Of a stretch of 64,000 nt of DNA, positions 5,113 through 28,087 are shown one piece after another; the first letter of the stretch is position 1, and every line of letters begins with the position of its first letter. Where the stretch lies: the IMG/VR virus record IMGVR_UViG_3300025849_000011. One strand, 5' to 3'. This DNA is from an uncultured virus (IMG/VR IMGVR_UViG_3300025849_000011) (taxonomy: Duplodnaviria; Heunggongvirae; Uroviricota; Caudoviricetes). The notes under the pieces were generated by a model. That model searched no databases. It was not told the origin of the DNA and was given only the letters and a program-made list of their open reading frames with translations. Position numbers and translations under genes: made by a program.

Positions 5113-5772
5113 TTAAAAAAAGTCGTTTGCGAGTGGAAATATTAAGGAAATTGCTTTTCCACATTGTATGGCTAATTCTCTATGTTCTTTTTGAGTCCCA
5201 TTTGCACTTCTCAATTCAATGTAATGAATCCACGATCTTAGCGTTCCATTGACATACAGACGCGACATTGTAAGACCTTCTGGTAAAACTTTTCTCGCTT
5301 GTTCCTTTGCAATACCATTCCCAATCGCCCAAAGATATGCTTCTTCAGCCTTATCAATCACCTCTTGTTGCATTATATTCCATGCAGATTGTAAATCAGC
5401 ATCATCTGTTTCTATACTATTCTGTCTATTTTTAGTGTCTTGAAGTCTTGCTTCACAAAGTTCAAACATATTGTCACCAAATTCATCAACATTAGCATAT
5501 CTCTGAGAAAACTCTTGAAATGAGAATGACCTATGCCGCAAGAGTTGTCGGGCAATATCTCTTGTTGCTTCAATTTCCATTGTAGCAGATACCATTTCTA
5601 GCGGTGACCAATGCTTATGCTTGATAAGATATTGTAGAAGTTTTTGGCTAGTAGCACTATTGATTTGATTTGAAGGATTTGATACCCTAGCGCAATATGC
5701 AACAAACTCTTGCAGATCGCCCAAGGCTGGTGATTCATGTGGTTGTGTGTACGCTTTTAAAACTGCTTTCAT
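5113..5772 (-). CDS. thyX: Flavin-dependent thymidylate synthase
   Basis: HWSPLE and RQLLRHRSFSFQEFSQRY ThyX motif. Confidence 0.95.
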   Translation of the reverse strand: MKAVLKAYTQPHESPALGDLQEFVAYCARVSNPSNQINSATSQKLLQYLIKHKHWSPLEMVSATMEIEATRDIARQLLRHRSFSFQEFSQRYANVDEFGDNMFELCEARLQDTKNRQNSIETDDADLQSAWNIMQQEVIDKAEEAYLWAIGNGIAKEQARKVLPEGLTMSRLYVNGTLRSWIHYIELRSANGTQKEHRELAIQCGKAISLIFPLANDFF

Positions 5773-6095: not shown

Positions 6096-6611
6096 TTATT
6101 TTATATACCACCATACATTATCTGGACCTACTTTGTGCTTTGGTGTTGATTGCACAACAGCCATTGCTACTTGAATAAGATTTATATCATGTCCAGACAC
6201 CAATCCACCTTTTCTAATTTTTGGAGTCCATAATTCAATATCCCTTTTTACGGAATCCCCATCATGTGAAGCATCAATAAAAACGTAATCAAGAGAACCA
6301 TCTTCAAACTGATTGTGTGCAAGATGTGTGAAGTCTCTAATTAATTTTGCCCTACCGTCAAAACCTTCACAAAATTTAATAAGTTCACCATACCATTCAA
6401 CAGGTGGTTGCTCACACAATTCCTCTGTAGTTGATATATCTTTTGCTTTCCAAATCTTATCGTTTAAAAATACATCAACGCCAATATGTGTTGTATTAGA
6501 ACAATTTACTGTAATGAACTTAAATGTTGGACCTCTCAACACTCCCAATTCTACACCAATCTTATAATTATTTGATCTGATTTGATCTGCTAACCAATGC
6601 GCTCTATTCAT
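6096..6611 (-). CDS. Class I SAM-dependent methyltransferase (Methyltransf_24-like)
   Basis: GVELGV..G, DYVFIDASH, GGLVSGHD. Confidence 0.8.
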   Translation of the reverse strand: MNRAHWLADQIRSNNYKIGVELGVLRGPTFKFITVNCSNTTHIGVDVFLNDKIWKAKDISTTEELCEQPPVEWYGELIKFCEGFDGRAKLIRDFTHLAHNQFEDGSLDYVFIDASHDGDSVKRDIELWTPKIRKGGLVSGHDINLIQVAMAVVQSTPKHKVGPDNVWWYIK

Positions 6612-9364: not shown

Positions 9365-9393
9365 ATTATAGCATATTCTATAATGATTGTCTA
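9365..9393 (-). promoter_or_regulatory. Sigma70-type promoter for uvsX-41
   Basis: TAGACA-17-TATAAT with extended TG. Confidence 0.65.
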
Positions 9394-10575
9394 GTCAAAA
9401 AATTCGCTTAGTGGGTTTGTTTCATCAATTCGTTCTTGACAGATTTTGAAATATTCTTCTGATTTCTCAATACCAATAAAGTCAAAACCCAAATCTTTTG
9501 CTGCCATACCAGTAGAGCCAGAACCCATAAATGGATCAAGTACAGTACCACCTTTGGGCGTGACAAGTCTCACTAAGTATTTCATCAACTCTTGTGGTTT
9601 GACTGTTGGATGTTTGTTATTTTCCCCACGTTCTTTTTTTGATACTTTTGGGCAATAGAAGAAACGCGCCCAATCTTGCTGTAGTCCATCGTGCATTATA
9701 TTTGCTGGGAAGCGTCCAGTGGGTTGTTTAAATTCCCCGCACCCATGAGTAAACCCAGAACCCTTGCCAGACTTTCTATCCTCATTTTGCCATTGGCTAG
9801 ACTCGTCCTTCCCTCGCTTCTCTCCGCTATATGTCCCACCATTTAGGTTGTCATTAGTCTCCACCCGACTAGCATCAATATTGATAGCACCAGTTCCATG
9901 TTTCAACACATTCTTAGCAACAGTACTTTCGGATATTGGTTTTCGCCCGACTGCAATCGGTTCGTGCGCTGGTTTTAGGGCTGTTCCCCAACCATCCCAT
10001 TGCTTGGCTGCTTCGGTGGCGGGTGCTGTGATGACCGCTTCAGTTTGCGCTTGCCTTGGTTTGTCATAACTTGGCATCTTGTCGCTGGTTGTGTTTTTAT
10101 TTGCTCTAGCCCTTGCTGCATGGTCTATCCCCACCACCTCACGCTCTGCCCCTGCCGCCTTGTCAATCGCCTTGCTGATATTCATACTCTTTGGAAATCC
10201 AGAACCATACAACCACATCATTTGATCACGAATCTCAAACCCAGCATCTTCTATTGCAACCGCCATTCTATGATAATTGCGTGAAGCCGAAAATGCAAGT
10301 AAGTGTCCACCCGGCTTCAATAATTCCCAAGCAAGTCTCCAAGTCTCAGCACGAAATGCAATATCGCCACCGTCCCACTCTTGACCCATGAAACCAGAAG
10401 ATGCTCTTGCAAATGCACCATCAGTACCTTGTTTTGCTGGTGCAGAACCTTCTTTTCCAAATCTGTCCACGATAGATTGTAGGTGATATGGTGGGTCTGT
10501 AACTACCGCATCAACTTGAACGCCTTGGTCAATTAATTTCTGCATTTCTTCAATACAGTCACCGCTAATAATCAT
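9391..10575 (-). CDS. DNA amino (N6-A/N4-C) methyltransferase, beta class
   Basis: VTDPPY, HPTVKP, VLDPFMGSGSTG. Confidence 0.9.
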   Translation of the reverse strand: MIISGDCIEEMQKLIDQGVQVDAVVTDPPYHLQSIVDRFGKEGSAPAKQGTDGAFARASSGFMGQEWDGGDIAFRAETWRLAWELLKPGGHLLAFSASRNYHRMAVAIEDAGFEIRDQMMWLYGSGFPKSMNISKAIDKAAGAEREVVGIDHAARARANKNTTSDKMPSYDKPRQAQTEAVITAPATEAAKQWDGWGTALKPAHEPIAVGRKPISESTVAKNVLKHGTGAINIDASRVETNDNLNGGTYSGEKRGKDESSQWQNEDRKSGKGSGFTHGCGEFKQPTGRFPANIMHDGLQQDWARFFYCPKVSKKERGENNKHPTVKPQELMKYLVRLVTPKGGTVLDPFMGSGSTGMAAKDLGFDFIGIEKSEEYFKICQERIDETNPLSEFFD

Positions 10576-11000
10576 ATATTTTTCACTCGCTTTCTTAAAT
10601 CACTAGATGAAAATCTGTGGTCTCTTTTGTTATAGTATATCTCTATGCCACGCTTTGAACAAATAGCGCGACCAGTAAACTTACCGTTTTTATATTCCTC
10701 ACCTATAATTCTTATGTTTATAGGAAACATGGATAATATATCCTCTAAGTCTTGCTCTGTTTGATATGGAATAATTTCATCAACATATTTTACGGCTGCA
10801 AGTTGGGTATGTCGCTCAACTAATGTCTGTACTGGTGTATTCTTCTCTGGTCTATCCAAAGATGGATCAACTTGCAATGCACATATTAAATAATCGCATT
10901 GTGATTTTGCTTCACGCAACATAGCGATATGACCAGCATGTAGAAAATCAAAAGTTGATGCAGTTATACCGACTTTAGTAGTTCCCAAGTTTCTCTCCAA
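10572..11000 (-). CDS. TagD-like cytidylyltransferase
   Basis: TFDFLHAGH (HxGH), KYVDEI, RFSSSDLR. Confidence 0.85.
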   Translation of the reverse strand: MERNLGTTKVGITASTFDFLHAGHIAMLREAKSQCDYLICALQVDPSLDRPEKNTPVQTLVERHTQLAAVKYVDEIIPYQTEQDLEDILSMFPINIRIIGEEYKNGKFTGRAICSKRGIEIYYNKRDHRFSSSDLRKRVKNI

Positions 11001-11668
11001 TCTTGCACTTGATATACTGAGTTTGGTTCGCCAAGATCATACACTCCCATTGCTATAGTATGATCATTACCACCGAAATCACATTTATCTCCATAAAAAT
11101 GTATTATATCAGATTTAGTGAAGTCTGTCAATATCTGAGATTTATCATTACCTTTTATTGTAATATCTATTCCAGTTTCACCCGCGACATTAAAATCAAA
11201 TTCTGTAAATTTTTCTGACAATCGTTTCGCGATATTTTTTCTTTCATTTGTATGATTATCCCAAGCCACATATTGAGTTCTAGCACGTTTTCCAGCATTT
11301 CTACCCACGATAGATAAATTTACAAGACCCGTTCTTTCTTCAATATGACCGCCAGTTCTAACAGGAAATTCGCTTTCACATATCTCTTTATTCAGATATC
11401 CCCACATTGTATCAGGTAGTTTTATTGTACCTTTGTGAACATTTTTGCCCCTTTCCCACACATCATTTCCAGAGCAATTATAGACACGTTTACACATACC
11501 GTATATAACATTACCAACTTGTTCAATTGTTTTTTCTTTATCACTACCAGTGACAAGATATACATTATTTAATGTGCAGAAGTCAAAGAAGAATGAACTG
11601 AATTTTTCATCCATCTTGGCCCTACTTGGCGTAAGTGTTCCATCAACATCAAATATATAGTGAATCAT
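10964..11668 (-). CDS. HAD-IIB phosphomannomutase-like phosphotransferase
   Basis: FDVDGTLT, LVTGSD, HIEERTG, FYGDKCDFGGNDH (alpha-PMM type). Confidence 0.8.
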   Translation of the reverse strand: MIHYIFDVDGTLTPSRAKMDEKFSSFFFDFCTLNNVYLVTGSDKEKTIEQVGNVIYGMCKRVYNCSGNDVWERGKNVHKGTIKLPDTMWGYLNKEICESEFPVRTGGHIEERTGLVNLSIVGRNAGKRARTQYVAWDNHTNERKNIAKRLSEKFTEFDFNVAGETGIDITIKGNDKSQILTDFTKSDIIHFYGDKCDFGGNDHTIAMGVYDLGEPNSVYQVQDWRETWELLKSV

Positions 11669-12882
11669 ATTTTATTGCCTATTAAATCCTCAAGAGTTTT
11701 TAATACTTCTTGACTCTTATCTTCCATATTATTTTCTATACACATTTTAACACATTTTCGTGTAAAGTCAAGAGAAAAACGCTTTCCATCCTTATCCATT
11801 CCAGTGTTAATCAAATACACATTACAATTATTTTCATGAATTTTTCGCATTAATAAGTCACTGTATTCTTTCACTGGCCTTGGCATAAAGGGTGATCCAT
11901 AACATGGACTAAAGAGTGGCTTAATCTCAGTTGCGCCCTTCTCAGTTCCTGGCATCTGACTTGTATATCCAGTTTCAAAAAATCTACGAACTGTCTCGCC
12001 ACTAATCTTGCTGTATGGTGGAAATACACCCTTTGCATCCATAGTTAAGAAAAATATATTATCTGGATGATCAAATTTCTGAGGCTTATGATATGCGTTT
12101 TCAACACAAGTGATAGGGTAACTCAATCTTGCATTTGGTACACCTGGATTTTCTACAACTAAGCAATCTTCTGCCTTCGCTTTTTCAACAGCGTCAAAAA
12201 TAGTCTTATGTGTTTCTGGAGATAACCCCTCACTCTTAGCATAACATCCAGTTTCAATCATTTTAATGCCATGCATATCCCAATAAACTTCATCGTCGCT
12301 AATCAACGCATAATTTGGATCACTACTCAATGTAGTTTTACCTGTACCACTCAAACCAAACATTAAATTAGTAGTTGCATCATATGTAAAGGCACTACAA
12401 TGCATAGGAAGATAATCTAGTTTAGGAAGTTCAAATCCAATGATACCAAACACACCTTTCTTAATCTCACCAAGAAAGGTGGTTCCAGCAATAAACATGG
12501 TTTTAGTATCAAGGTTTACATAGATTTTAGGATGCGGCACATCTAATTCAGTGTTGTGCCAAATTGTCCAATCTGGAACATGATCCCCAAATCCATTAGG
12601 TAGTACATCAAACATATTTTTTACAAATTGTTCATGACGTTCATCATTGGTATATACTTGAAATCTAATATTTGCAGATTCAAATCGTAAAGGTTTTTTG
12701 TAAATATATCCTGTTATCATGCTAGGAAGCATTTGATCTGCAAACAAAAGATAGTCATCCATATTACCAATCTTGCAATATTTTGGTCTTTCCTTACATA
12801 ATTCTGAAGTTGCTTCTCCAAAAAAGTATTTGTTCTCTGGACTGCGACCCGTTGGTTCTGTTGTAATGTTGATATTAGTCAT
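11665..12882 (-). CDS. pckA: ATP-dependent phosphoenolpyruvate carboxykinase (shortened)
   Basis: TGRSP, GEIKKG, MHCSA, FGLSGTGKTTLS, SDDE, GCYAK, RLSYP, FSPCYG.PF, YLINTG. Confidence 0.9.
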   Translation of the reverse strand: MTNINITTEPTGRSPENKYFFGEATSELCKERPKYCKIGNMDDYLLFADQMLPSMITGYIYKKPLRFESANIRFQVYTNDERHEQFVKNMFDVLPNGFGDHVPDWTIWHNTELDVPHPKIYVNLDTKTMFIAGTTFLGEIKKGVFGIIGFELPKLDYLPMHCSAFTYDATTNLMFGLSGTGKTTLSSDPNYALISDDEVYWDMHGIKMIETGCYAKSEGLSPETHKTIFDAVEKAKAEDCLVVENPGVPNARLSYPITCVENAYHKPQKFDHPDNIFFLTMDAKGVFPPYSKISGETVRRFFETGYTSQMPGTEKGATEIKPLFSPCYGSPFMPRPVKEYSDLLMRKIHENNCNVYLINTGMDKDGKRFSLDFTRKCVKMCIENNMEDKSQEVLKTLEDLIGNKI

Positions 12883-13087
12883 TTTCTAATCCTTTATTTT
12901 TAATATGTTCTAATTCAACAGGTTCATGTAGTGCATTTTGTCCTTGAGCATATACTAAACCTGTAGCATTACCTAAAGTCCCTCGCCTTTGATATAATAC
13001 AGGTCTTGCTTCTAACTTTTCTATACGTCTTTGTAAATCTGCAATCTGCTTTTCAATATTAACACCAGCATCAGCATATGCGTTCAT
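12875..13087 (-). CDS. Hypothetical protein
   Basis: 70 aa with RBS; N-terminus YADAGVNI. Confidence 0.6.
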   Translation of the reverse strand: MNAYADAGVNIEKQIADLQRRIEKLEARPVLYQRRGTLGNATGLVYAQGQNALHEPVELEHIKNKGLEND

Positions 13088-13098
13088 TTTAATATCCT

Positions 13099-13449
13099 TT
13101 ATAAAGCAGCATAACCAACTGTTTCTCTCACAATATCATTATGGTTAAATTCTGCCCAATATAACTCATATGCAATACCAGATTGAATACACTCAAACTG
13201 ATGAAAAACTCCGGGTTTTACTTTGGTATAATCTCCTGGCCCTAAAATAGTTTCGTCAACTAAATCATAATCCTCAGACCAAACCTTTATTTTCATCATA
13301 CCTTCTTCAACATAAAATCCATTCCATTTAAATTCATGCATATGTTTGGAACAAACACCACCTTCTTTCATTTGAATTCTATGAAATTCTAATGCACCAT
13401 TTGCTTCAATCAATTCTGTTTGACCCCATACCTTACCAGCGATTGTCAT
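13099..13449 (-). CDS. Cupin domain protein
   Basis: KVWGQTE, CSKHMHEFK.NGFYVEEG, PGVFHQF. Confidence 0.8.
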   Translation of the reverse strand: MTIAGKVWGQTELIEANGALEFHRIQMKEGGVCSKHMHEFKWNGFYVEEGMMKIKVWSEDYDLVDETILGPGDYTKVKPGVFHQFECIQSGIAYELYWAEFNHNDIVRETVGYAAL

Positions 13450-14249
13450 ACTTTACTCCATTTGCTTGCTTCATATATCATATCTATGTTTGATTTAATT
13501 CTTTCATTAAACTCTTCATCTGTTTGTGAATGGAATAGACCTTCACTCAAACCTCTACTGAAACTTGCACTCATATGTGGTGAACGAGACAATCTGGCAC
13601 ATGCTTCCTCAGTTGAATACCCCCCACTTAGACCAACAATCTTTTCAACTGAATTGTATTCATACAAATTATTGTACGTTTCTGAAATATCAGGTATGGT
13701 AAGTTTAAGAATAAGTTGTCCAGGAAAATCTCTACAACGATTCATCAATTCATCATTTAGATGTTTTTCAATGATTGATTTATTAAAAGCATCAATAGGA
13801 ACTTCTGGTTCTACTATTGGCGTGAGGCCAGCGTTTGAAATTCTCCATGCTAACTCAAATTGTTGATCAAGAAGTTTTGGAACATCATACATATCCTTAA
13901 CGATACTTCTCATTTTGGTTCCCACACAACCAGACCCTAAAGCAAAACGTATCATTGAATCAATATCAAATACCTTCAAGAAACCATTTGCTTCACATCC
14001 ACTATCAACCTTCAGAATAGCATGGATACCTTTATTTGCAAGAACAGCCACCATATCCTTTTCAACAGAATCTTTGTAAAGAATTGCATGACTAATCTTA
14101 TCACTTGTAAAGTTTTCGTTCAATACCATACGCAACCGCATACGGTGAACTAAATCCATTTTATTATCTTCAGTATATTCTTGACCATATCGCTCTAATA
14201 CGCCGCCAGTGCTACCACCAGAATGATCCATTGCTGCTATAAATGTCAT
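13446..14249 (-). CDS. fda: Class I fructose-bisphosphate aldolase (bacterial type)
   Basis: FIAAMDHSGGST, LKVDSG, GTKMRS, PIVEPEV, ILKLTIP, LSGGYS, ASFSRGL. Confidence 0.9.
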   Translation of the reverse strand: MTFIAAMDHSGGSTGGVLERYGQEYTEDNKMDLVHRMRLRMVLNENFTSDKISHAILYKDSVEKDMVAVLANKGIHAILKVDSGCEANGFLKVFDIDSMIRFALGSGCVGTKMRSIVKDMYDVPKLLDQQFELAWRISNAGLTPIVEPEVPIDAFNKSIIEKHLNDELMNRCRDFPGQLILKLTIPDISETYNNLYEYNSVEKIVGLSGGYSTEEACARLSRSPHMSASFSRGLSEGLFHSQTDEEFNERIKSNIDMIYEASKWSKV

Positions 14250-14339: not shown

Positions 14340-15302
14340 TTATATAAAAAAATCTTCTAAAGTTGTAGGTTTTTCGTACTGTGGAACTAAAGTACCGGCT
14401 GTTACTTGACGATCAAAATTCATAATATGATCACCAAGCCACTTAACAACAGGAACTGTCATTCCATTCAGCATGTACAATTGCATATTAGATAGATCAC
14501 AACCATCAAAAAAGTCAGTAGGGTAACCCTGTAGGGCTAAACGCTCATTAACAGCCAACTTACGCAGACCACCACTGTCTAGTACCAGATCAGTAAAGTC
14601 TTTGTAATCACGTTTCAAGATAGTAGATGCTACTCCTTTTTCGCCAAACTGGTCACTTCTTTGTCTAGTAAAGAAGGCAAATGGATATCCGCCTTTGCAT
14701 CCCTGTTCAAAATTCCAAGGGCGGCTTTTTTGGATATGTAAAGTTTTGGATTGGATTGCTTTGTCACTGCGCCCGACAAATCCGAATATATCGGCTCCTT
14801 CGGGGATTCCATCACGGACTGCCAGAATGTAAACTCTACGTCTTCGCTGTGGGACTCCAAAGTATTGGCTGTCGCACATCGTCCAAGTCGCATCGTACCC
14901 GATTTCGGCAAGGTCTTGCAGAATGACATTAAGTCCTCTTGAAAGCAATGCGCTGACGTTTTCAATAACTGCATATTTTGGTTTTGTTTCATCAATTAAT
15001 CTCCTAAATTCACGCCAAAGGCCAGAACGTTCGCCTTCAATGATACCTTTGTTTTTACCGCCTATAGATATGTCTTGACACGGAAACCCACCACAGATCA
15101 AATCAAAGTCAACCCCATCACGTTTAAGGTCTTCGCCAGTTACTGTTGTGACGTCACCATATATGGGAACCCCTTGCCAATTCTTTTTCAAAACACGTTT
15201 GGCGTATTCTTCGTATTCACAAAACGCAACAGTCTCCATGCCAGATTGTTCAAACCCTAGACTGTAGCCACCACTTCCACTGAATATATCGAATACCTTC
15301 AT
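14340..15302 (-). CDS. C5 cytosine DNA methyltransferase family protein
   Basis: DIFSGSGG (I), GGFPCQD (IV), IENV (VI), PQRRRRVY (VIII), ERLALQGYP (IX), atypical motif X LNGMTVPVV. Confidence 0.9.
   Translation of the reverse strand: MKVFDIFSGSGGYSLGFEQSGMETVAFCEYEEYAKRVLKKNWQGVPIYGDVTTVTGEDLKRDGVDFDLICGGFPCQDISIGGKNKGIIEGERSGLWREFRRLIDETKPKYAVIENVSALLSRGLNVILQDLAEIGYDATWTMCDSQYFGVPQRRRRVYILAVRDGIPEGADIFGFVGRSDKAIQSKTLHIQKSRPWNFEQGCKGGYPFAFFTRQRSDQFGEKGVASTILKRDYKDFTDLVLDSGGLRKLAVNERLALQGYPTDFFDGCDLSNMQLYMLNGMTVPVVKWLGDHIMNFDRQVTAGTLVPQYEKPTTLEDFFI
14630..14992 (-). CDS. Nested +1-frame protein inside the C5 MTase (M.EcoHK31I beta-like)
   Basis: 120 codons open; AGGAG 8 nt before the ATG; LYISKKAALGILNRDAKADIHLP motif. 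Confidence 0.6.
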   Translation of the reverse strand: MKQNQNMQLLKTSAHCFQEDLMSFCKTLPKSGTMRLGRCATANTLESHSEDVEFTFWQSVMESPKEPIYSDLSGAVTKQSNPKLYISKKAALGILNRDAKADIHLPSLLDKEVTSLAKKE

Positions 15303-16033
15303 GCTTCGTTTCTTTCTATGATATAACCACCAAATTCACCATAGCGAAAAAATTCAGTGTATTTGTATGAACTAAAAAGAGTTTCTGGATTTATCGGACG
15401 CTGTACACCAGACAAAGATAATTCTTTCTTAATAATATCATCTGGTTTTGCGCCACTTTCCATCTTTGCCCTCAAAGTAAGGCGAGAAAGCACAGTAGAT
15501 ACATAACCACCCGTTGGAATGGTTTTCTCTACTATCACCAACGCGCCATCATCTCTTAGGCTATCCATCATGCCATCAAGCAACAAGGTTCGTCTGTGTG
15601 GTGGTATGAACATCATTGTGAGGAACATTACCCCAAAGTCAAATTCTTCAAATGAATGTTGTGTAGCATCTGTAACAATCACAGGATTGTCACCAGTGTA
15701 CATATCAGCCATCTGTTGGCTTTTTTCAATCGGAATAAAGTCTACGTTTCTCTCAGTGAGAATAGACTTCAAGGTACGCTCTACATTACCTGTACTCGCA
15801 CCAACATCATAAACAGTACCCTGTTCTGGTATGTAGTGATTAGCGATTTGAGCAATAGCACTACTTACCATATCGTACCAAGGTAGTTGTTCGCGCACAT
15901 GATCGTCAAAGTTTCTTGCGACCTTGACGTCATTAAATGTCCAGTTTGTGGGTATATCAATCATATTTCCATACTTTCTTTTCATACATATGAATTTAAA
16001 TATTCGGTTTCTCCAAATAAACTCATAATACAT
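15299..16033 (-). CDS. CmoA-like (carboxy-SAM synthase family) protein
   Basis: WTF...VARNFDDHVREQLPWY, VYDVGASTG, GALVIVEK, FFRYGEFGG; true start may be the MIDIP Met. Confidence 0.8.
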   Translation of the reverse strand: MYYEFIWRNRIFKFICMKRKYGNMIDIPTNWTFNDVKVARNFDDHVREQLPWYDMVSSAIAQIANHYIPEQGTVYDVGASTGNVERTLKSILTERNVDFIPIEKSQQMADMYTGDNPVIVTDATQHSFEEFDFGVMFLTMMFIPPHRRTLLLDGMMDSLRDDGALVIVEKTIPTGGYVSTVLSRLTLRAKMESGAKPDDIIKKELSLSGVQRPINPETLFSSYKYTEFFRYGEFGGYIIERNEA

Positions 16034-16958
16034 TCCTATATGCGTATTCTATTGCTCTATCGGCTTCAACAGCCAAAGGTCTTTTTTCATATTTTCTAGA
16101 AGTCTCACTGTCTAGTTCTCTTATCAGTTGCTCCAACTCAAATGATGTGATTGGATACTTTTTACTTATTGCATTCATTGCAGTACTTACCATAATTTTA
16201 TATATCATAGCATATCTGCCAGAATTGTCAACACCAGAAATATCAAACCAATCTTGTATTTGACGTTTATTCACAAATGGACAATCTCTATATCCTGTCC
16301 ACTTAAAATCTAAATTATCTAGTTTATTCTTTTCATATTGAATTGCTCTATCCGCTATGTGTTTTGGCATACGGTCTTTGAAACTACTACCACTTTTCAC
16401 TTCATATGAATGTTTACTCATTAATTTGTTAGGATCAATATCACTACCAACATTATTGAATATAAAGTTGTTAGCATTAGAATAATTAGCAGGGATATAA
16501 TACATCCTGGATAAGTCTTTTGTTTGCCCATCTCCGATTTCACTGAGTTCTTTATTAAGAGCGTACCAAAAGTGGCGAATTTTAGAATTTTCAACCTCTT
16601 TACTGAGCGGAAATACAAGTCTAAACTTTGGGTGGTCAATAGAACTACTAGCGGTACTATAACAAATATAGGTATAATCGCCAAAGCGATTAAATAACTC
16701 ATCTTTTAAGTTTCCTTTAAAGACATGATCATCAACATCAACAGCAGTCCAATTTGCCCAATTAACCACATTCGCGTTTGCCCTAGTCGTATTAGATAAG
16801 TAAGTAGCAGGTGATATAAGTTGGGCATCTTTTTTACTTTCTATTTTTTGTTCTGATAATTTATATAGGAAATCCTTAAAGGCTTCCCACCGCGAGAAAT
16901 TCATTCTACGGTGGGTTTTGTTATCATATATAGATTTGAATATTGTAAGCGAGTACAC
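16023..16958 (-). CDS. Putative AEP-superfamily primase/PrimPol-like protein
   Basis: AVDVDD (DxD), YSTASS....KFRLVFPL, D..TKDLSRMYYIP. Confidence 0.6.
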   Translation of the reverse strand: MYSLTIFKSIYDNKTHRRMNFSRWEAFKDFLYKLSEQKIESKKDAQLISPATYLSNTTRANANVVNWANWTAVDVDDHVFKGNLKDELFNRFGDYTYICYSTASSSIDHPKFRLVFPLSKEVENSKIRHFWYALNKELSEIGDGQTKDLSRMYYIPANYSNANNFIFNNVGSDIDPNKLMSKHSYEVKSGSSFKDRMPKHIADRAIQYEKNKLDNLDFKWTGYRDCPFVNKRQIQDWFDISGVDNSGRYAMIYKIMVSTAMNAISKKYPITSFELEQLIRELDSETSRKYEKRPLAVEADRAIEYAYRNVL

Positions 16959-17299
16959 TACATATCCTTTAAGTCAGATTCCTTGACAAAAATACCGTCA
17001 ACCATGCGCCCTTTACGATCTTTAATATCGTTGTAAGCAACTGTTAAACACTCATTCATAGTAATATTATTACGTTTCATAATATTGATCATTACAACCA
17101 TCATATCACCTAAATCGTCACGAATATCATTACCTTTACAAACGCTGTCCGACAATTCTCCCAACTCTTGCATCAACTTCAAAACTTGGTCTTTGTCACT
17201 TGATCCATCAATCAAATTACGATTTTCGTGCCAATCACCAATTTTATTGATTAGTGCCATCACAGGAAATTCGTGCGTTTTGATTTTTTTAGTTTCCAT
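16958..17299 (-). CDS. MazG-like nucleotide pyrophosphohydrolase
   Basis: KLMQELGEL, DDLGD, AYNDIKDRKG. Confidence 0.85.
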   Translation of the reverse strand: METKKIKTHEFPVMALINKIGDWHENRNLIDGSSDKDQVLKLMQELGELSDSVCKGNDIRDDLGDMMVVMINIMKRNNITMNECLTVAYNDIKDRKGRMVDGIFVKESDLKDM

Positions 17300-17597: not shown

Positions 17598-17626
17598 TGA
17601 ATACATGATTCGTATTAGGGAGTCAA
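17598..17626 (-). promoter_or_regulatory. Promoter TTGACT-17-TATTCA with CGAATCA in spacer
   Basis: Same architecture as 14306-14334. Confidence 0.5.
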
Positions 17627-18351
17627 TAGAGAAATTCATTTAAATTTGTTCCTAATCTTTTTTCTGCTATTTTGAAATACTTTTCTTCTTTTTCTATTCC
17701 TATAAATTCTCTATTTGTATGGACGCAAGCAACTCCTGTAGTTCCAGAACCCATTGTATTATCAAGAACAACATCCCATTCATTAGTGTAAGTTTTTATC
17801 AAATATTCCATCAAACCTACTGGTTTTTGAGTAGGATGATAACCTTTTTCTTGTTTATATCTTATCACTGTTTTTGGGTATCTTGATCCTTCTGGGTTAT
17901 CCCTATGTTTTGATTCAGCATTGCCATACACTTCACCAATTTTTGCCGTATCGCTACTAAATCCAGAATACGGTGTACTATACCACATTTGAGGATTATA
18001 AGTTGGTTTCTCCCTATAAAATACTAAGATATTTTCATGGGATTTTAACGGCATTATCTTCACATTCATGGGGTTTGTGCCTTGAGGTTTTTCCCAAATC
18101 CATTCATATCTTAAATTATTTATATTAGAAGCAGCAAGAATTGTTGTGAATGGTTGCATTGAGGTAAAAACCATGGCTGCATTTTTCTTGCAAACCCTAT
18201 TATATTGTTCCCATAGTTTATCTAATGGAATAATAGAATCCCATTTACATGCAGTAGTGCCATATGGAAGATCAGCGAGAAGCATATCTACTGAATTATC
18301 TTCAATTGTAGGCAATACCTCTAAGCAATCCCCAAGTATAGTTTTTACCAT
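17623..18351 (-). CDS. DNA amino methyltransferase, beta class
   Basis: ADLPYG, WIWEK, HPTQKP, VLDNTMGSGTTG. Confidence 0.9.
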   Translation of the reverse strand: MVKTILGDCLEVLPTIEDNSVDMLLADLPYGTTACKWDSIIPLDKLWEQYNRVCKKNAAMVFTSMQPFTTILAASNINNLRYEWIWEKPQGTNPMNVKIMPLKSHENILVFYREKPTYNPQMWYSTPYSGFSSDTAKIGEVYGNAESKHRDNPEGSRYPKTVIRYKQEKGYHPTQKPVGLMEYLIKTYTNEWDVVLDNTMGSGTTGVACVHTNREFIGIEKEEKYFKIAEKRLGTNLNEFLY

Positions 18352-23761: not shown

Positions 23762-24451
23762 TTAAGAAATTATGCTTTTTATTTTCCAAGGAGTGAAACA
23801 TACTGTTCCTAGACTTACATAGTCTGCACCTTTATCAAAATAAAATTCTGCATCATCCTTATTTGTAACTCCACCACCAGCGATTACAGTAATGCTAGGA
23901 TGTTTTCTCTTTATATATTCTATAATCCTTGTAGTATATGGTTTTAAAATTTTTCCACTTTGACCGCCATTTAAAGAATACAAAGTGTTGCTTGCATGTA
24001 TTTGATTATATCCTAAATCTACTATCTTGTCTATAAGACATTCTGTCGCAGTAGGTGGTATTTTGCATATACACCATTCTCTTTCACTCTTAGGAAATAA
24101 ATCAAAACCAGATAAATTTACCGCACCCACATCTTTATCAAGGTTTGGACAACTTATATTAATCTCAACAGATGAATTTTTATCTACTATACGAGACAGA
24201 TGTAGCCAATCATATTCATTTATTGCGGCAAGGCTCAACACATCTGTAGAGTTTGTTCTTTTTAAACCCTCATATATTCCAGCATTTCGCAATCCAATTT
24301 TATTAATCCATCCACCATTTTTATATCTAAGAGTTTTAAAAATTTGGGGAATAAGTCCTTCTCTTTTTTCAACGGTCCAACTTCCAGTTACGCTAATTGC
24401 GTTAGGAAGTTTTAAATAGTTTCCAAAAGGTGCTGATATAAAGTATTTCAT
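23762..24451 (-). CDS. pyrD: Dihydroorotate dehydrogenase-like FMN enzyme
   Basis: INKIGLRN.G, VEINISCPN, SNT, GGQSG, IAGGGV, GADYVSLGT. Confidence 0.75.
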   Translation of the reverse strand: MKYFISAPFGNYLKLPNAISVTGSWTVEKREGLIPQIFKTLRYKNGGWINKIGLRNAGIYEGLKRTNSTDVLSLAAINEYDWLHLSRIVDKNSSVEINISCPNLDKDVGAVNLSGFDLFPKSEREWCICKIPPTATECLIDKIVDLGYNQIHASNTLYSLNGGQSGKILKPYTTRIIEYIKRKHPSITVIAGGGVTNKDDAEFYFDKGADYVSLGTVCFTPWKIKSIIS

Positions 24452-25322: not shown

Positions 25323-25597
25323 TTTTCTAACCTTTTTATTCTGGTTTCAAGTTCATCTATTTTTTTTGCTATTTTAGGAGATAAACTTCTCCAAGCATCA
25401 TCTGGTTGATCAAACCAAGTCCACCCAAACTTGTCTCTTATAGTATCTAGTAATATATCCCATTTAGAGTATAACCATAATCCAATTTTTGTATCTCTCA
25501 TATATGCTAAAAATAGTGCGCCAAATACCGAACCCATAATACCCGTATAAATCCATAAACGATCTGAAGCCATATTTTCAATCATATCCCAAATCAT
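25319..25597 (-). CDS. Small membrane protein
   Basis: One TM helix, C-terminal coiled coil. Confidence 0.6.
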   Translation of the reverse strand: MIWDMIENMASDRLWIYTGIMGSVFGALFLAYMRDTKIGLWLYSKWDILLDTIRDKFGWTWFDQPDDAWRSLSPKIAKKIDELETRIKRLEK

Positions 25598-26364
25598 TTT
25601 TTAAATTTCTTCAATTTACTTGAATAATGTTCAATACTATGATCATATATTCCATCAAAAATTTGTTTATTTTTCATGGCGCACCACCTACCCCTCAAAG
25701 AATCCTTTATCTTTTGCCAAAAGGACAATCTACGAATATTTCCATAATGATTAATATATCTCTCTGTGCCGTGATGCCTATATCCCATTATCCATAAAGG
25801 AACTGTTGGCACAATATCATTATTATTCCTAAATCTATAATGCTCAACATCCATACCTACACAAAATTCTTTACCACCAACTCTTGGTGAACCATATGTA
25901 AATAATATAGGATTTTTTTCTTCAAGTCTAGATGCACATAGTGTTGCCATAGCACCACCAAGAGAATGACCAGTAATCCAAAGTTGTTTTCTTTTACTTT
26001 TTTGAAGTAGTGCTTCAATATCAGACCAAAGTTTTCTTAATTCTATTTTAAATCCCATATGAACCATACCCTCAGTTTTAGATTTTCTTTTAAATGCAAG
26101 TAAATCTGCTTTAACATCTGAAAACTCTGTTGGTTCTGTACCTCTAAAAGCAACAATAATATTATCTTTATCTGAAAAGATATGACATTGTGCGCCATCA
26201 TTCTCTAAAAATTTATATGATTTGAAACCTAATTTTGATAATTCTCTTTTTGCTTTAGTTCCATCATGATAGGCCAAAGCAGATACTTCAGAAAAAAAAT
26301 AACTGAGAGCAAAAGTATCATTCCAATCTAGACTTTCACAATCCATAAAAAATTTTCTGGTCAT
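25594..26364 (-). CDS. Class 3 lipase
   Basis: VAFRGTE, VHMGF, WITGHSLGGAMA, TYGSPRVG, DIVP.VP, DHSI..Y. Confidence 0.9.
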   Translation of the reverse strand: MTRKFFMDCESLDWNDTFALSYFFSEVSALAYHDGTKAKRELSKLGFKSYKFLENDGAQCHIFSDKDNIIVAFRGTEPTEFSDVKADLLAFKRKSKTEGMVHMGFKIELRKLWSDIEALLQKSKRKQLWITGHSLGGAMATLCASRLEEKNPILFTYGSPRVGGKEFCVGMDVEHYRFRNNNDIVPTVPLWIMGYRHHGTERYINHYGNIRRLSFWQKIKDSLRGRWCAMKNKQIFDGIYDHSIEHYSSKLKKFKK

Positions 26365-26878: not shown

Positions 26879-28087
26879 TCATTTGTTCTTACTATTTATA
26901 TGTTTAAGAAGATCGTTTTTACTTGTTTTATTAGTCTTAATAGAGAAATCTAATGCAGATTGTAAAGCATCACCTATACTCTTACCTTTAAACCCCAATT
27001 GAGAAACATCTTTTCCATTTATAGGTAATTCTTTAACTGAAAGATATTTAACACTTTTTAATTTTGATGATACTGTTGGTTTTCCTATAGCAGTAAGATA
27101 AGCATCAGCAGATTTAATATCGTTATCTTTAGCCCATCCAACTAATTTAACTAAATCCATATCTTTGTATGAAGTTACAGATTGAACTGCTTTTGAATCA
27201 ATATTAGATAGTTTCATTCCAGCCTTGGCGATTTTACCAGCATCTTGTTTATAACTCATCAAAACCATTCCTATAAAAGAACCATAATTTTTAGTTTCTA
27301 GTTTATCTAATGCTTTTAAATTAATGTCTTTAATAGATGCCTTTGGGAATAAATGTTTCATCAATCCACTTTCAAATAAAAGTTTTATACCGATTGATGG
27401 TTTTTTTGATTTGGTGAAAAGTTTTTTAAATTCTTCATTGAATCTATCAGAAGAAACTGATGAAATAGTATGTGCTTGTTTTTTCATTTCCTTGAAAGTA
27501 TTTTTTTCAATTTTAAATTCAAACCTAGCCGCGAATTGAATGGCTCTTAACATTCTTAAAGGATCATCTTCAAATGAAGTAGGACTGATCATACGAATTT
27601 CTTTATTCTTAATATCTTTCATACCCTTGCCATCAGTGTCAATAATCTCTCCAGTATCAACATCTTTAGCCAATTGATTTATCCAAAAATCTCTTCTCAA
27701 CTGATCTTGTTGTAAAGTAATACCTTTTCCTAATTGTACCTCAAAATCTTTATGACCAGCCCCAGTACTCTTAGAGTCAACTCTTGGTACTGAAATATCA
27801 ACATCTTCTTCTTCTGTTGAACCTGTTGGTACAAATTTCAGAATACCAAAAGATTTGCCAACCATATTCACTTTACCGTGAGGCTTTAATATTTCTTCTA
27901 AATCGCTTAGTTCTACACCAACAACGATTAAGTCTAAGTCTTTTGAAACCTTTCCAAGTAGTTCATCACGAACCACACCACCAATTTGATAGATTTTACC
28001 ACCAGCGTTTTTAATAGACTTTCTAACTTTCATAGTTAAAAGTTTTTCTAACATACTTTCATTTAAATGACATATAAAACTTTTCAT
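26879..28087 (-). CDS. cca: Class II tRNA nucleotidyltransferase (CCA-adding type, no HD domain)
   Basis: IGGVVRD.LLG...KDLD, QDQLRRDF.IN, FEDDPLRMLRA..FAARF, ELPINGKDV..LGFKG..IG; leader MKSFICHLNE. Confidence 0.9.
   Translation of the reverse strand: MKSFICHLNESMLEKLLTMKVRKSIKNAGGKIYQIGGVVRDELLGKVSKDLDLIVVGVELSDLEEILKPHGKVNMVGKSFGILKFVPTGSTEEEDVDISVPRVDSKSTGAGHKDFEVQLGKGITLQQDQLRRDFWINQLAKDVDTGEIIDTDGKGMKDIKNKEIRMISPTSFEDDPLRMLRAIQFAARFEFKIEKNTFKEMKKQAHTISSVSSDRFNEEFKKLFTKSKKPSIGIKLLFESGLMKHLFPKASIKDINLKALDKLETKNYGSFIGMVLMSYKQDAGKIAKAGMKLSNIDSKAVQSVTSYKDMDLVKLVGWAKDNDIKSADAYLTAIGKPTVSSKLKSVKYLSVKELPINGKDVSQLGFKGKSIGDALQSALDFSIKTNKTSKNDLLKHINSKNK
26893..26900 (-). promoter_or_regulatory. 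Late promoter TATAAATA
   Basis: Exact consensus at the 3' end of the cca gene. Confidence 0.65.

What the first reader, a model, noticed from the sequence alone, without database searches (positions are those of the whole stretch)
14340..16033. CmoA-like enzyme coupled to an atypical C5 cytosine transferase: possible non-methyl cytosine modification
Seen: the two genes overlap by ATGA and look more GC-rich than their flanks. Known: CmoA converts SAM to carboxy-SAM, and C5 MTases altered at motif X can transfer carboxymethyl to give 5cxmC; CmoA/MTase pairs have been linked to this in phages. By-eye alignment to E. coli CmoA from memory puts Glu (IKKE) at Arg199 (SQKR) and Phe at Asn132, while the MTase motif X reads LNGMTV rather than GNAV and has no basic residue there. 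Inference: the pair may make 5cxmC by a different arrangement or use another SAM analogue, giving an undescribed base.
Basis: partly seen in the sequence, partly recalled or inferred. Interest (0 to 1): 0.8.

Follow-up and report, generated by a model that had tools for sequence, protein, structure and literature searches.

The report
Phage CmoA with Met-type cytosine transferase
A marine T4-like phage carries a carboxy-SAM synthase gene coupled to a DNA cytosine-modifying enzyme from a lineage that lacks the published carboxymethyl-binding arginine yet almost always sits next to such a synthase, so it probably makes carboxymethylcytosine in a way not yet described.

Summary
Two minus-strand genes overlap by ATGA. 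Their GC is 0.40 against 0.34 for the window.

The upstream gene is a phage-type CmoA. It has Glu and Phe where E. coli CmoA has Arg199 and Asn132. The experimentally validated SpCmoA of phage S-B43 also has Glu (and Leu) there, and none of 76 phage CmoA-likes has Arg. So these changes do not point to a new SAM analogue.

The downstream gene is a complete C5-cytosine transferase, but not a CmoX as published in December 2025 (SPPC motif plus Arg350). It reads FPCQ and N-G-M, with an invariant Met where profile alignment puts Arg350 (HhaI Asn304).

This "Met-type" lineage is tightly linked to CmoA:
- 18 of 19 sequence clusters in viral contigs have a CmoA beside them; 0 of 36 control clusters do.
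- The partners come from deeply diverged CmoA lineages and occur in both gene orders.

Best reading (about 0.55): a second, unpublished class of carboxy-SAM-dependent DNA carboxymethyltransferase that makes 5cxmC.

Against this: no cationic residue, PCQ retained, and no phage CmoA in three cultured Vibrionaceae phages.

This scan flagged the same lineage before on other DNA. Verdict: a new variant of a known kind.

The parts
15299..15964 (-). Phage-type CmoA (carboxy-SAM synthase homologue), 221 aa from the likely start; the ORF stays open up to 16033.
   Evidence: TIGR00740 CmoA is the best NCBIfam hit (2e-20, 73.5 bits, below the 193.3 cut-off, as is validated SpCmoA at 115.6). The AF2 model has pLDDT 87; the six best Foldseek chains are all CmoA structures (1im8, 4gek, 4iwn; TM 0.80-0.83). 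Start inferred from homologue N-termini.
14340..15302 (-). Met-type C5-cytosine DNA transferase, 320 aa.
   Evidence: PF00145 1.1e-54, matched over residues 1-165 only. TIGR00675 1.6e-49. AF2 pLDDT 73; Foldseek top hit M.HhaI 4e-18, with CmoX 8yf3 at rank 12. hhalign to the CmoX family gives probability 99.8.
15299..15302 (-). ATGA stop/start overlap (translational coupling).
   Evidence: Read directly from the sequence.
15078..15080 (-). Codon of the catalytic Cys75 in motif IV, GGFPCQDIS.
   Evidence: Translation. Aligns with SpCmoX Cys98.
14460..14468 (-). Motif X N279-G280-M281. Met281 is invariant in the family and aligns with SpCmoX Arg350.
   Evidence: Translation, family invariants, hhalign.
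15422..15424 (-). Glu codon at the E. coli CmoA Arg199 column.
   Evidence: Validated SpCmoA has the same residue.
15623..15625 (-). Phe codon at the E. coli CmoA Asn132 column.

Best explanation
This is a two-gene DNA-modification cassette of a marine T4-like phage. Step 1 (inferred from family membership): the CmoA homologue converts SAM plus prephenate into carboxy-SAM, as shown for phage S-B43 SpCmoA. Step 2 (inferred from gene linkage): the translationally coupled C5 transferase flips out its target cytosine and attacks C6 with Cys75. It then transfers the carboxymethyl group of carboxy-SAM to C5, giving 5-carboxymethylcytosine in a sequence context set by its own target-recognition domain. 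The transferase belongs to a lineage separate from the published CmoX. It keeps FPCQ and has an invariant Met (N-G-M) instead of the carboxylate-binding Arg, so it must recognise the cofactor's carboxymethyl group differently. Step 3 (inferred): the modified DNA resists host restriction. No CmoY-like ligase was found in the window, so 5cxmC would be the end product unless a ligase lies elsewhere in the genome.
For: CmoA side:
- CmoA is the best family and fold match.
- The SAM-contacting residues Tyr39, Asp62, Gly64, Ser66 and Phe137 of E. coli CmoA are conserved.
- In the quick tree our protein branches next to a clade (SH-aLRT 100) whose 15 members with a detected transferase all pair with SPPC-type CmoX (5 more have none in the fetched flank).
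- Moraxella phage Mcat8 carries ParB, CmoX (SPPC, GR) and a CmoA 45% identical to ours.
- No alignment column separates Met-partnered from Arg-partnered CmoAs apart from a conservative E/D.

Transferase side:
- Motifs I, IV, VI, VIII and IX are intact.
- Linkage, sample 1: all 9 of 80 loci with a full-length relative have an adjacent CmoA. None of the 71 loci that share only the N-terminal domain (53-59% identical, canonical LGNAVVPQIPE) has one.
- Linkage, sample 2: 48 of 50 loci found through TRD motifs have an adjacent CmoA. The exceptions are a contig end and a 431-aa outlier.
- Linkage, sample 3: 17 of 18 Met-type loci found through a motif-X DNA pattern have one.
- Dereplicated: 18 of 19 clusters against 0 of 36 control clusters, Fisher p = 1.3e-13. 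A further 80 loci of other phage C5 methylases have none.
- The partner CmoAs are only 20-40% identical to ours, and the gene order is CmoA-then-transferase in 2 clusters and the reverse in 13.
- The Gln of PCQ is relaxed to T/S/A in many members. Gln and Asn are the two positions mutated to open C5-methylase pockets for larger cofactors (Q82A/N304A in HhaI, Q136A/N374A in M.MpeI; PMC6009647 passages).
Against: - There is no cationic residue in motif X. In CmoX, Arg350 contacts the carboxymethyl group and R350N is inactive (PMC12783734). Saturation mutagenesis of M.MpeI N374 found that cationic side chains work best, and wild-type M.MedI is only weakly active with carboxy-SAM.
- Our copy keeps PCQ.
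- An Asn (N279) lies two residues upstream and could be the true Asn304 equivalent. That is the reading of the gapless HMMER alignment (score -0.5 bits). Canonical methylases with 'GNGM' exist and are not CmoA-linked.
- A natural 5mC methylase, M.CviPI, has Tyr at the N374-equivalent site, so a non-Asn residue does not prove non-methyl chemistry.
- Met-type genes in Vibrio phages S4-7, 1.052.A and 1.233.A, and in locus L222, have no phage CmoA.
- A sister subfamily (GTPC..., ANGMS) seen in locus L204 also lacks one.
- In the tree, Met-partnered CmoAs fall in only 2-3 groups that parallel the transferase groups. Ancient co-inheritance of a cassette explains part of the linkage.
- There is no biochemical evidence.
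Confidence: 0.55

Rival explanations
1. The transferase is an ordinary SAM-dependent 5mC methylase with an odd motif X. The CmoA homologue does something else, such as draining SAM to blunt host SAM-dependent defences, or supplying carboxy-SAM to another enzyme.
For: PCQ and every catalytic motif are canonical, and N279 may be the real Asn304 equivalent. Met-type genes occur without a phage CmoA in three cultured Vibrionaceae phages and in L222. M.CviPI methylates with Tyr at this site. Yang et al. themselves raise SAM depletion by CmoA as a possibility (Discussion). The window also holds two N6/N4 methylases and a Methyltransf_24 protein.
Against: It does not explain why this one lineage has a CmoA beside it in 18 of 19 clusters while 0 of 36 clusters with a near-identical N-terminal domain do. 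It also does not explain linkage across CmoA partners only 20-40% identical and in both gene orders. Coupling a SAM consumer by translation to an enzyme that needs SAM would work against itself. Vibrionaceae hosts probably supply carboxy-SAM themselves: CmoB of Vibrio vulnificus is cited in PMC12783734, and host CmoA sufficed for CmoX in E. coli. Yang et al. report finding no N6- or N4-carboxymethyltransferase candidates near CmoA.
Confidence: 0.25
2. The pair installs something other than 5cxmC or 5mC. The CmoA homologue might make a different SAM derivative, or the Met-type enzyme might process the carboxymethyl group differently or act on another acceptor. The result would be an undescribed base.
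For: The cofactor pocket is remodelled in a way not seen in CmoX or the engineered enzymes: an invariant hydrophobic Met and a variable residue in place of the conserved Gly or Asn. Phage CmoAs lack Arg199.
Against: The Arg199 and Asn132 substitutions are shared with SpCmoA, which was shown to make carboxy-SAM. No residue column distinguishes Met-partnered from Arg-partnered CmoAs. The closest CmoA relatives serve genuine CmoX enzymes. No conserved extra enzyme accompanies the pair in 14 representative loci (129 ORFs scanned).
Confidence: 0.12
3. A decaying or inactive remnant of a horizontally acquired cassette.
For: GC is higher than the flanks.
Against: Both ORFs are intact with all motifs. 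Copies 95-100% identical occur on several independent viral contigs. The MTase cluster P0125 (98% identical) stands for 112 contigs.
Confidence: 0.03

Closest known systems
CmoA-CmoX(-CmoY) system of Synechococcus phage S-B43 (Yang et al., Nat Commun 2025, PMC12783734; CmoX structure 8YF3)
   Same: A phage CmoA homologue sits next to a C5-methylase-fold enzyme within the replication gene module, and a MazG-like gene lies nearby in both phages. The CmoA has the same Glu at the Arg199 column. The catalytic Cys, Glu (ribose contact) and Asp (adenine contact) of CmoX align with ours.
   Different: The transferase comes from another lineage: FPCQ rather than SPPC, Met281 (or Asn279) rather than Arg350, and a different target-recognition domain. 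Foldseek ranks HhaI above 8YF3. No CmoY/asparagine-synthetase-like ligase and no ParB were found among the 64 window ORFs scanned.
Engineered carboxymethyltransferases M.MpeI N374K and M.MedI N377K (passages of PMC12015181 and PMC13288465)
   Same: A C5 methylase scaffold that keeps PCQ and is altered at motif X so that it can use carboxy-SAM.
   Different: The engineered enzymes gain a Lys or Arg that forms a salt bridge. The natural Met-type lineage has no cationic residue there.
E. coli CmoA / H. influenzae YecO (PDB 4GEK, 4IWN, 1IM8)
   Same: The fold matches (TM 0.80-0.83) and the SAM-binding residues are conserved.
   Different: 24-28% identity. Arg199 is Glu and Asn132 is Phe. No CmoB partner was found among the 64 window ORFs scanned. 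The partner is a DNA enzyme rather than a tRNA enzyme.
M.HhaI and other canonical C5 DNA methyltransferases (PF00145)
   Same: The fold matches and motifs I-VIII are present.
   Different: Pfam aligns only residues 1-165. The motif X GN dipeptide is replaced by x-N-G-M. The gene is obligately linked to CmoA.

Membership tests
CmoA (carboxy-SAM synthase) | CmoA-type class I methyltransferase fold | tested here: met
   AF2 pLDDT 87, pTM 0.82. The six best Foldseek chains are 1im8, 4gek and 4iwn, with TM 0.80-0.83.
CmoA (carboxy-SAM synthase) | Score above the curated cut-off of TIGR00740 / NF011995 | tested here: not met
   73.5 bits against 193.3. The validated SpCmoA also fails (115.6 bits), as do all five other phage CmoAs scanned. 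The cut-off is tuned to bacterial tRNA-pathway CmoA.
CmoA (carboxy-SAM synthase) | Arg199 salt bridge to the cofactor carboxylate (PMC3663124 passages) | tested here: not met
   Glu by HMMER and by MAFFT. Validated SpCmoA also has Glu, and 76 of 76 phage CmoA-likes have E, D or Q. So the feature does not define the phage enzymes.
CmoA (carboxy-SAM synthase) | SAM-contacting residues Tyr39, Asp62, Gly64, Ser66, Phe137 | tested here: met
   All are conserved in our protein and in SpCmoA.
CmoA (carboxy-SAM synthase) | Makes carboxy-SAM from SAM and prephenate | not testable with these tools
   This needs an enzyme assay.
CmoX (DNA cytosine C5-carboxymethyltransferase as defined by Yang et al.) | SPPC motif at the catalytic Cys | tested here: not met
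   GGFPCQDIS.
CmoX (DNA cytosine C5-carboxymethyltransferase as defined by Yang et al.) | Arg350 in motif X binding the carboxymethyl group | tested here: not met
   hhalign puts G280-M281 on G349-R350. Met281 is invariant in 21 of 21 aligned members. No Lys or Arg is conserved in the motif.
CmoX (DNA cytosine C5-carboxymethyltransferase as defined by Yang et al.) | Genomic association with CmoA | tested here: met
   ATGA-coupled here. 18 of 19 family clusters have a CmoA beside them.
Canonical C5 DNA methyltransferase (PF00145) | Motifs I (FxGxGG), IV (PCQ), VI (ENV), VIII (QxRxR) | tested here: met
   DIFSGSGG, GGFPCQDIS, IENV and PQRRRRV are present and invariant in the family.
Canonical C5 DNA methyltransferase (PF00145) | Motif X Gly-Asn dipeptide (HhaI Asn304) | tested here: inconclusive
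   The sequence reads L-N-G-M. For G-M = G-N: the profile alignment, the conservation pattern (G at least 90%, M 100%, N replaced by C, A or S in some members), and the predicted loop just before the last helix, which starts at residue 283. For N279 = Asn304: a gapless HMMER alignment scoring -0.5 bits and the 'GNGM' methylases. I put it at about 70:30 for Met.

The most novel reading that the evidence does not exclude
The Met-type enzymes are a widespread, independent class of carboxy-SAM-using DNA enzymes. Their hydrophobic Met pocket handles the cofactor so differently from CmoX that the product is neither plain 5cxmC nor 5mC, but a cytosine derivative not yet described.
Probability: 0.12. 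Interest if true: 0.9.

Novelty: new variant of a known kind. Interest (0 to 1): 0.6.

Why it matters
The only natural DNA carboxymethyltransferases described so far were found by requiring SPPC plus Arg350. The engineering literature likewise treats a cationic motif-X residue as the key to carboxy-SAM use.

A second lineage that depends on CmoA just as strictly but has an invariant Met instead would have three consequences:
- Natural 5cxmC, or a relative of it, would be more widespread than the published census suggests.
- Carboxy-SAM could be recognised in a second structural way, which is useful for designing sequencing enzymes with new target specificities.
- Cultured Vibrio phages with this enzyme could be tested directly by nucleoside mass spectrometry.

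Separately, the finding that every phage CmoA examined, including the validated one, lacks Arg199 revises what counts as a defining residue of the family.

Tried and rejected
- Arg199 and Asn132 as markers of a different cofactor: rejected, because validated SpCmoA shares the changes.
- Close cultured relatives: megablast found only about 200-nt patches in Vibrio phage methylase genes. The window's own assembly is not held, and the nearest record, G001, lacks the region.
- CmoA-transferase fusion proteins as Rosetta-stone evidence: the two long hits, P0245 and P0248, turned out to carry inteins, not fusions.
- A conserved third gene (ligase, ParB) beside Met-type pairs: none recurred among 129 ORFs of 14 representative loci.
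- CmoX, CmoY or CmoB elsewhere in the window: none among the 64 ORFs scanned. Small ORFs and the rest of the genome were not covered.
- Fetching the sister subfamily (GTPC..., ANGMS; alignment A8): the scan returned unrelated C5 methylases, which I used only as a further control.
- The careful maximum-likelihood tree did not finish. The tree I cite is the quick one with SH-aLRT only, and SpCmoA's placement has weak support (82).
- Residue-level structural superposition on HhaI or 8YF3 was not possible because model coordinates are not exposed. The choice of motif-X equivalence therefore rests on sequence profiles and predicted secondary structure.
- The search of earlier findings by place and by sequence gave nothing.
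- Complex prediction was not run, because no protein-protein binding is claimed.
Full report
**What is there.** The window is part of a marine T4-like myophage. It encodes gp23, gp20, gp18, gp15, UvsW, UvsY, clamp and clamp loader, RegA and a gp43 polymerase. That polymerase is 57% identical to Phage C48C1 and about 49% to cyanomyophages. Nearly all genes lie on the minus strand.

Inside the replication module, the order of transcription is:
- MazG-like gene (16958-17299).
- A primase-like gene (16023-16958; phrog_9765).
- The CmoA-like gene.
- A C5-cytosine methylase-like gene.

The last two overlap by ATGA. Their GC is 0.404 against 0.342 for the window. Only two other regions of the 64 kb reach that value. 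The one correction concerns the start of the CmoA-like gene, which is probably the ATG at 15964 (221 aa), judged from the N-termini of homologues.

**The known background.** In December 2025 Yang et al. (PMC12783734) described this kind of system in Synechococcus phage S-B43. I read the abstract, outline, the whole Results and the Discussion, but not the supplements. Their findings:
- SpCmoA makes carboxy-SAM from SAM and prephenate, with a kcat ten times that of E. coli CmoA.
- CmoX, a C5-methylase homologue, transfers the carboxymethyl group to cytosine in GC sites.
- CmoY then ligates glycine.
- In the CmoX crystal structure (8YF3), Arg350 replaces HhaI Asn304 and contacts the carboxymethyl group, and R350N is dead.
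- Their census of 5,615 CmoX candidates required both the SPPC motif and Arg350.

**The CmoA-like gene.**
- *Family and fold.* Its best family match is CmoA (TIGR00740, 2e-20). The score is below the curated cut-off, but so is the score of validated SpCmoA. Pfam finds nothing. An AlphaFold2 model (pLDDT 87) matches the CmoA structures 1im8, 4gek and 4iwn best, with TM 0.80-0.83.
Glu sits at the Arg199 column and Phe at the Asn132 column. Arg199 is the residue that Byrne et al. (PMC3663124, passages) called the key to binding the carboxylate. The inference drawn from this fails, however. SpCmoA, which demonstrably makes carboxy-SAM, has Glu and Leu at these columns, by MAFFT and by a high-confidence HMMER alignment to 4gek.
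- *Wider sample.* Among 76 distinct phage CmoA-likes collected here, the Arg199 column holds E, D or Q and never Arg. No column separates those partnered with Arg-type transferases from those partnered with Met-type ones, apart from a conservative E/D.
- *Nearest relatives.* About 50% identical proteins pair overwhelmingly with SPPC-type CmoX. Of the 80 best viral loci:
  - 55 have an SPPC enzyme nearby.
  - 7 have the FPCQ/NGM enzyme; these are the copies at least 67% identical to ours.
  - 4 have CmoX-like ORFs that were partial or whose motif my pattern missed.
  - 14 have no methylase in the fetched flank, several of them at contig ends.
- *Further support.* Moraxella phage Mcat8 has ParB, CmoX (SPPC, GR) and a CmoA 45% identical to ours. 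In a quick tree our protein branches next to the clade that serves Arg-type CmoX.

I conclude that this is a phage-type carboxy-SAM synthase.

**The transferase.**
- *Intact core.* It has intact motifs I, IV (GGFPCQDIS), VI, VIII and IX. The model has a C5-methylase fold, with HhaI on top at 4e-18 and 8YF3 at rank 12. The catalytic loop and target-recognition domain are of low confidence.
- *Not a CmoX.* It fails both published criteria.
- *Motif X.* The sequence reads M-L-N-G-M-T-V-P-V-V. In 21 aligned family members Met281 is invariant and Gly280 is at least 90% conserved. Asn279 is not conserved and is C, A or S in some members.
- *Evidence that Gly-Met stands for Gly-Asn/Gly-Arg.* Profile-profile alignment with the CmoX family (probability 99.8) puts Gly280-Met281 on Gly349-Arg350. 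The model places these residues in the loop just before the last helix, which starts at residue 283 with Thr/Ser282 as a likely N-cap. The upstream Q-x-Y also fits HhaI's Q-A-Y as printed.
- *Evidence the other way.* A gapless HMMER alignment to HhaI pairs Asn279 with Asn304, but it scores only -0.5 bits. Ordinary methylases with 'GNGM' exist.
- *Weighing.* I put this at about 70:30 for Met. On either reading the canonical Gly-Asn is not kept and there is no conserved cationic residue.
- *PCQ.* The Gln of PCQ is relaxed to T, S or A in many members.

**Linkage, the main new evidence.** The N-terminal catalytic half is 53-59% identical to a large group of phage methylases with a canonical LGNAVVPQIPE motif X. 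hhalign aligns only residues 1-174 between the two groups. What correlates with CmoA is the C-terminal half.

| Sample | Met-type loci or clusters with adjacent CmoA |
|---|---|
| 80 loci found with the whole protein | 9 of 9 with a full-length match; 0 of 71 with only the N-terminal match |
| 50 loci found through two TRD motifs | 48 of 50; L200 ends 10 nt after the gene, and L204 is a 431-aa member of a sister subfamily |
| 21 loci found through a motif-X DNA pattern | 17 of 18 Met-type loci; L222 is the exception, and 3 loci were chance matches |
| Dereplicated at 80% identity | 18 of 19 clusters; controls 0 of 36; Fisher p = 1.3e-13 (L204 excluded; 18 of 20 with it) |
| 80 loci of other phage C5 methylases | 0 of 80 |

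- The partner CmoAs are only 20-40% identical to ours, yet all have CmoA as best family hit.
- The order is transferase-then-CmoA in 13 clusters and CmoA-then-transferase in 2, ours included. In one cluster a second methylase lies between them.
- Some jumbo contigs carry two such pairs.
- In the quick tree, Met- and Arg-partnered CmoAs occur in both deep CmoA groups. The Met-partnered ones fall into only 2-3 groups that parallel the transferase groups. Part of the signal is therefore long co-inheritance rather than repeated re-association.
- At 50% clustering the C-terminal module is rare: 17 representatives at E up to 1e-30 among 1.84 billion.

**Counter-evidence.**
- Four records of cultured Vibrionaceae phages (S4-7, 1.052.A, 1.233.A/B) have Met-type genes. 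The three genomes searched with the CmoA profile (S4-7, 1.052.A, 1.233.A) hold no CmoA anywhere. This fits use of host carboxy-SAM: host CmoA sufficed for CmoX in E. coli, and the paper cites a Vibrio vulnificus CmoB. It fits plain methylation equally well.
- Cationic residues were the best solution in saturation mutagenesis of M.MpeI N374, and wild-type M.MedI is only weakly active with carboxy-SAM (passages).
- M.CviPI is a natural 5mC methylase with Tyr at the equivalent site.
- On the other hand, Gln82 and Asn304 are exactly the positions opened to admit larger cofactors in engineered HhaI and M.MpeI.

**Verdict.**
- Most likely (0.55): the pair makes carboxy-SAM and uses it to put a carboxymethyl group on C5 of cytosine, through a transferase lineage that recognises the cofactor without the published arginine.
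- Rivals: an ordinary 5mC methylase with an independently acting CmoA (0.25), a different product (0.12), or a relic (0.03).
- Shown: gene structure, motifs, fold and linkage.
- Inferred: cofactor use, product, and protection from restriction.

**Prior art.** Searches for CmoA/5-carboxymethylcytosine, for 5cxmC/CmoX/carboxymethylcytosine, and for carboxy-S-adenosyl + bacteriophage + cytosine found only the Yang et al. paper for natural systems. Nothing in the sections I read describes a non-SPPC, non-Arg partner. Earlier notes of this scan flagged the same kind of lineage on other DNA (e1-6460808, e1-2903149, e1-5496829). I formed my reading before seeing them and tested it on my own data. I have borrowed the label "Met-type" from the first of those notes.

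Noticed in passing
window 10572-14249 (-): Directly downstream of the transferase lies a run of metabolic genes. They are a class I fructose-bisphosphate-aldolase-like gene (13446-14249; PRK05377 1.2e-67), a cupin (13099-13449), a 70-aa ORF, a PEP carboxykinase-like gene (11665-12882; PF01293 2.4e-89), a phosphomannomutase-like HAD (10964-11668) and a small nucleotidyltransferase (10572-11000). tblastn found PEPCK and aldolase relatives only in records that look bacterial or unannotated, so these are unusual phage genes. They may feed an NDP-sugar pathway or the PEP supply (PEP feeds the shikimate route to prephenate, CmoA's co-substrate). This is speculation and was not tested. The cluster is absent next to the pair in the 67-76% relative L167.
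   Followed up: partly
window 9391-10575 (-), 17623-18351 (-), 6096-6611 (-): There are three more methyltransferase genes. One is an N6/N4 DNA methylase with a long internal insertion and the highest GC of the region (0.45; windows up to 0.50). The second is another N6/N4 methylase. The third is a Methyltransf_24 protein.
   Followed up: no
proteins P0245 (654 aa) and P0248 (593 aa): Some alleles of the Met-type transferase carry an intein inserted exactly at the catalytic Cys of GGFP-C-QDIS. P0245 is a close relative of the window's gene. The intein C-terminal splicing motif was detected. An earlier scan note (e1-5688257) reports the same insertion site in a CmoX.
   Followed up: partly
L170:5012-6028, L171:4371-5417: A third kind of C5 methylase lies beside CmoA and the Met-type gene in two loci. 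Motif IV reads PC[LK]PFS and motif X reads Y-E-R-C-S-G-I-P, which has neither Asn nor Arg at the GN place but keeps the E-R of CmoX.
   Followed up: no
L184+L211 (221-kb contig) and L186+L207 (206-kb contig): Two different Met-type transferase plus CmoA pairs occur on one jumbo-phage contig, each with its own CmoA.
   Followed up: no
alignment of 76 phage CmoA-likes; L002:3962-4657: No phage CmoA examined, including the validated SpCmoA, keeps E. coli Arg199; all have E, D or Q. They share His at the E. coli Met31 column and mostly Asp at Pro29. Looser product binding might go with the ten-fold higher kcat reported for SpCmoA. That link is my speculation.
   Followed up: partly
window 5113-5772, 23762-24451, 25594-26364, 26879-28087 (-): Other accessory genes include ThyX, a dihydroorotate-dehydrogenase-like protein, a class 3 lipase and a poly(A) polymerase/CCA-adding-type nucleotidyltransferase next to an HD-domain protein.
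   Followed up: no
L173:5783-6118: A lambdoid-type contig with a Met-type pair also encodes a Mom-family protein a little downstream. It is a second DNA-modification gene in the same module.
   Followed up: no
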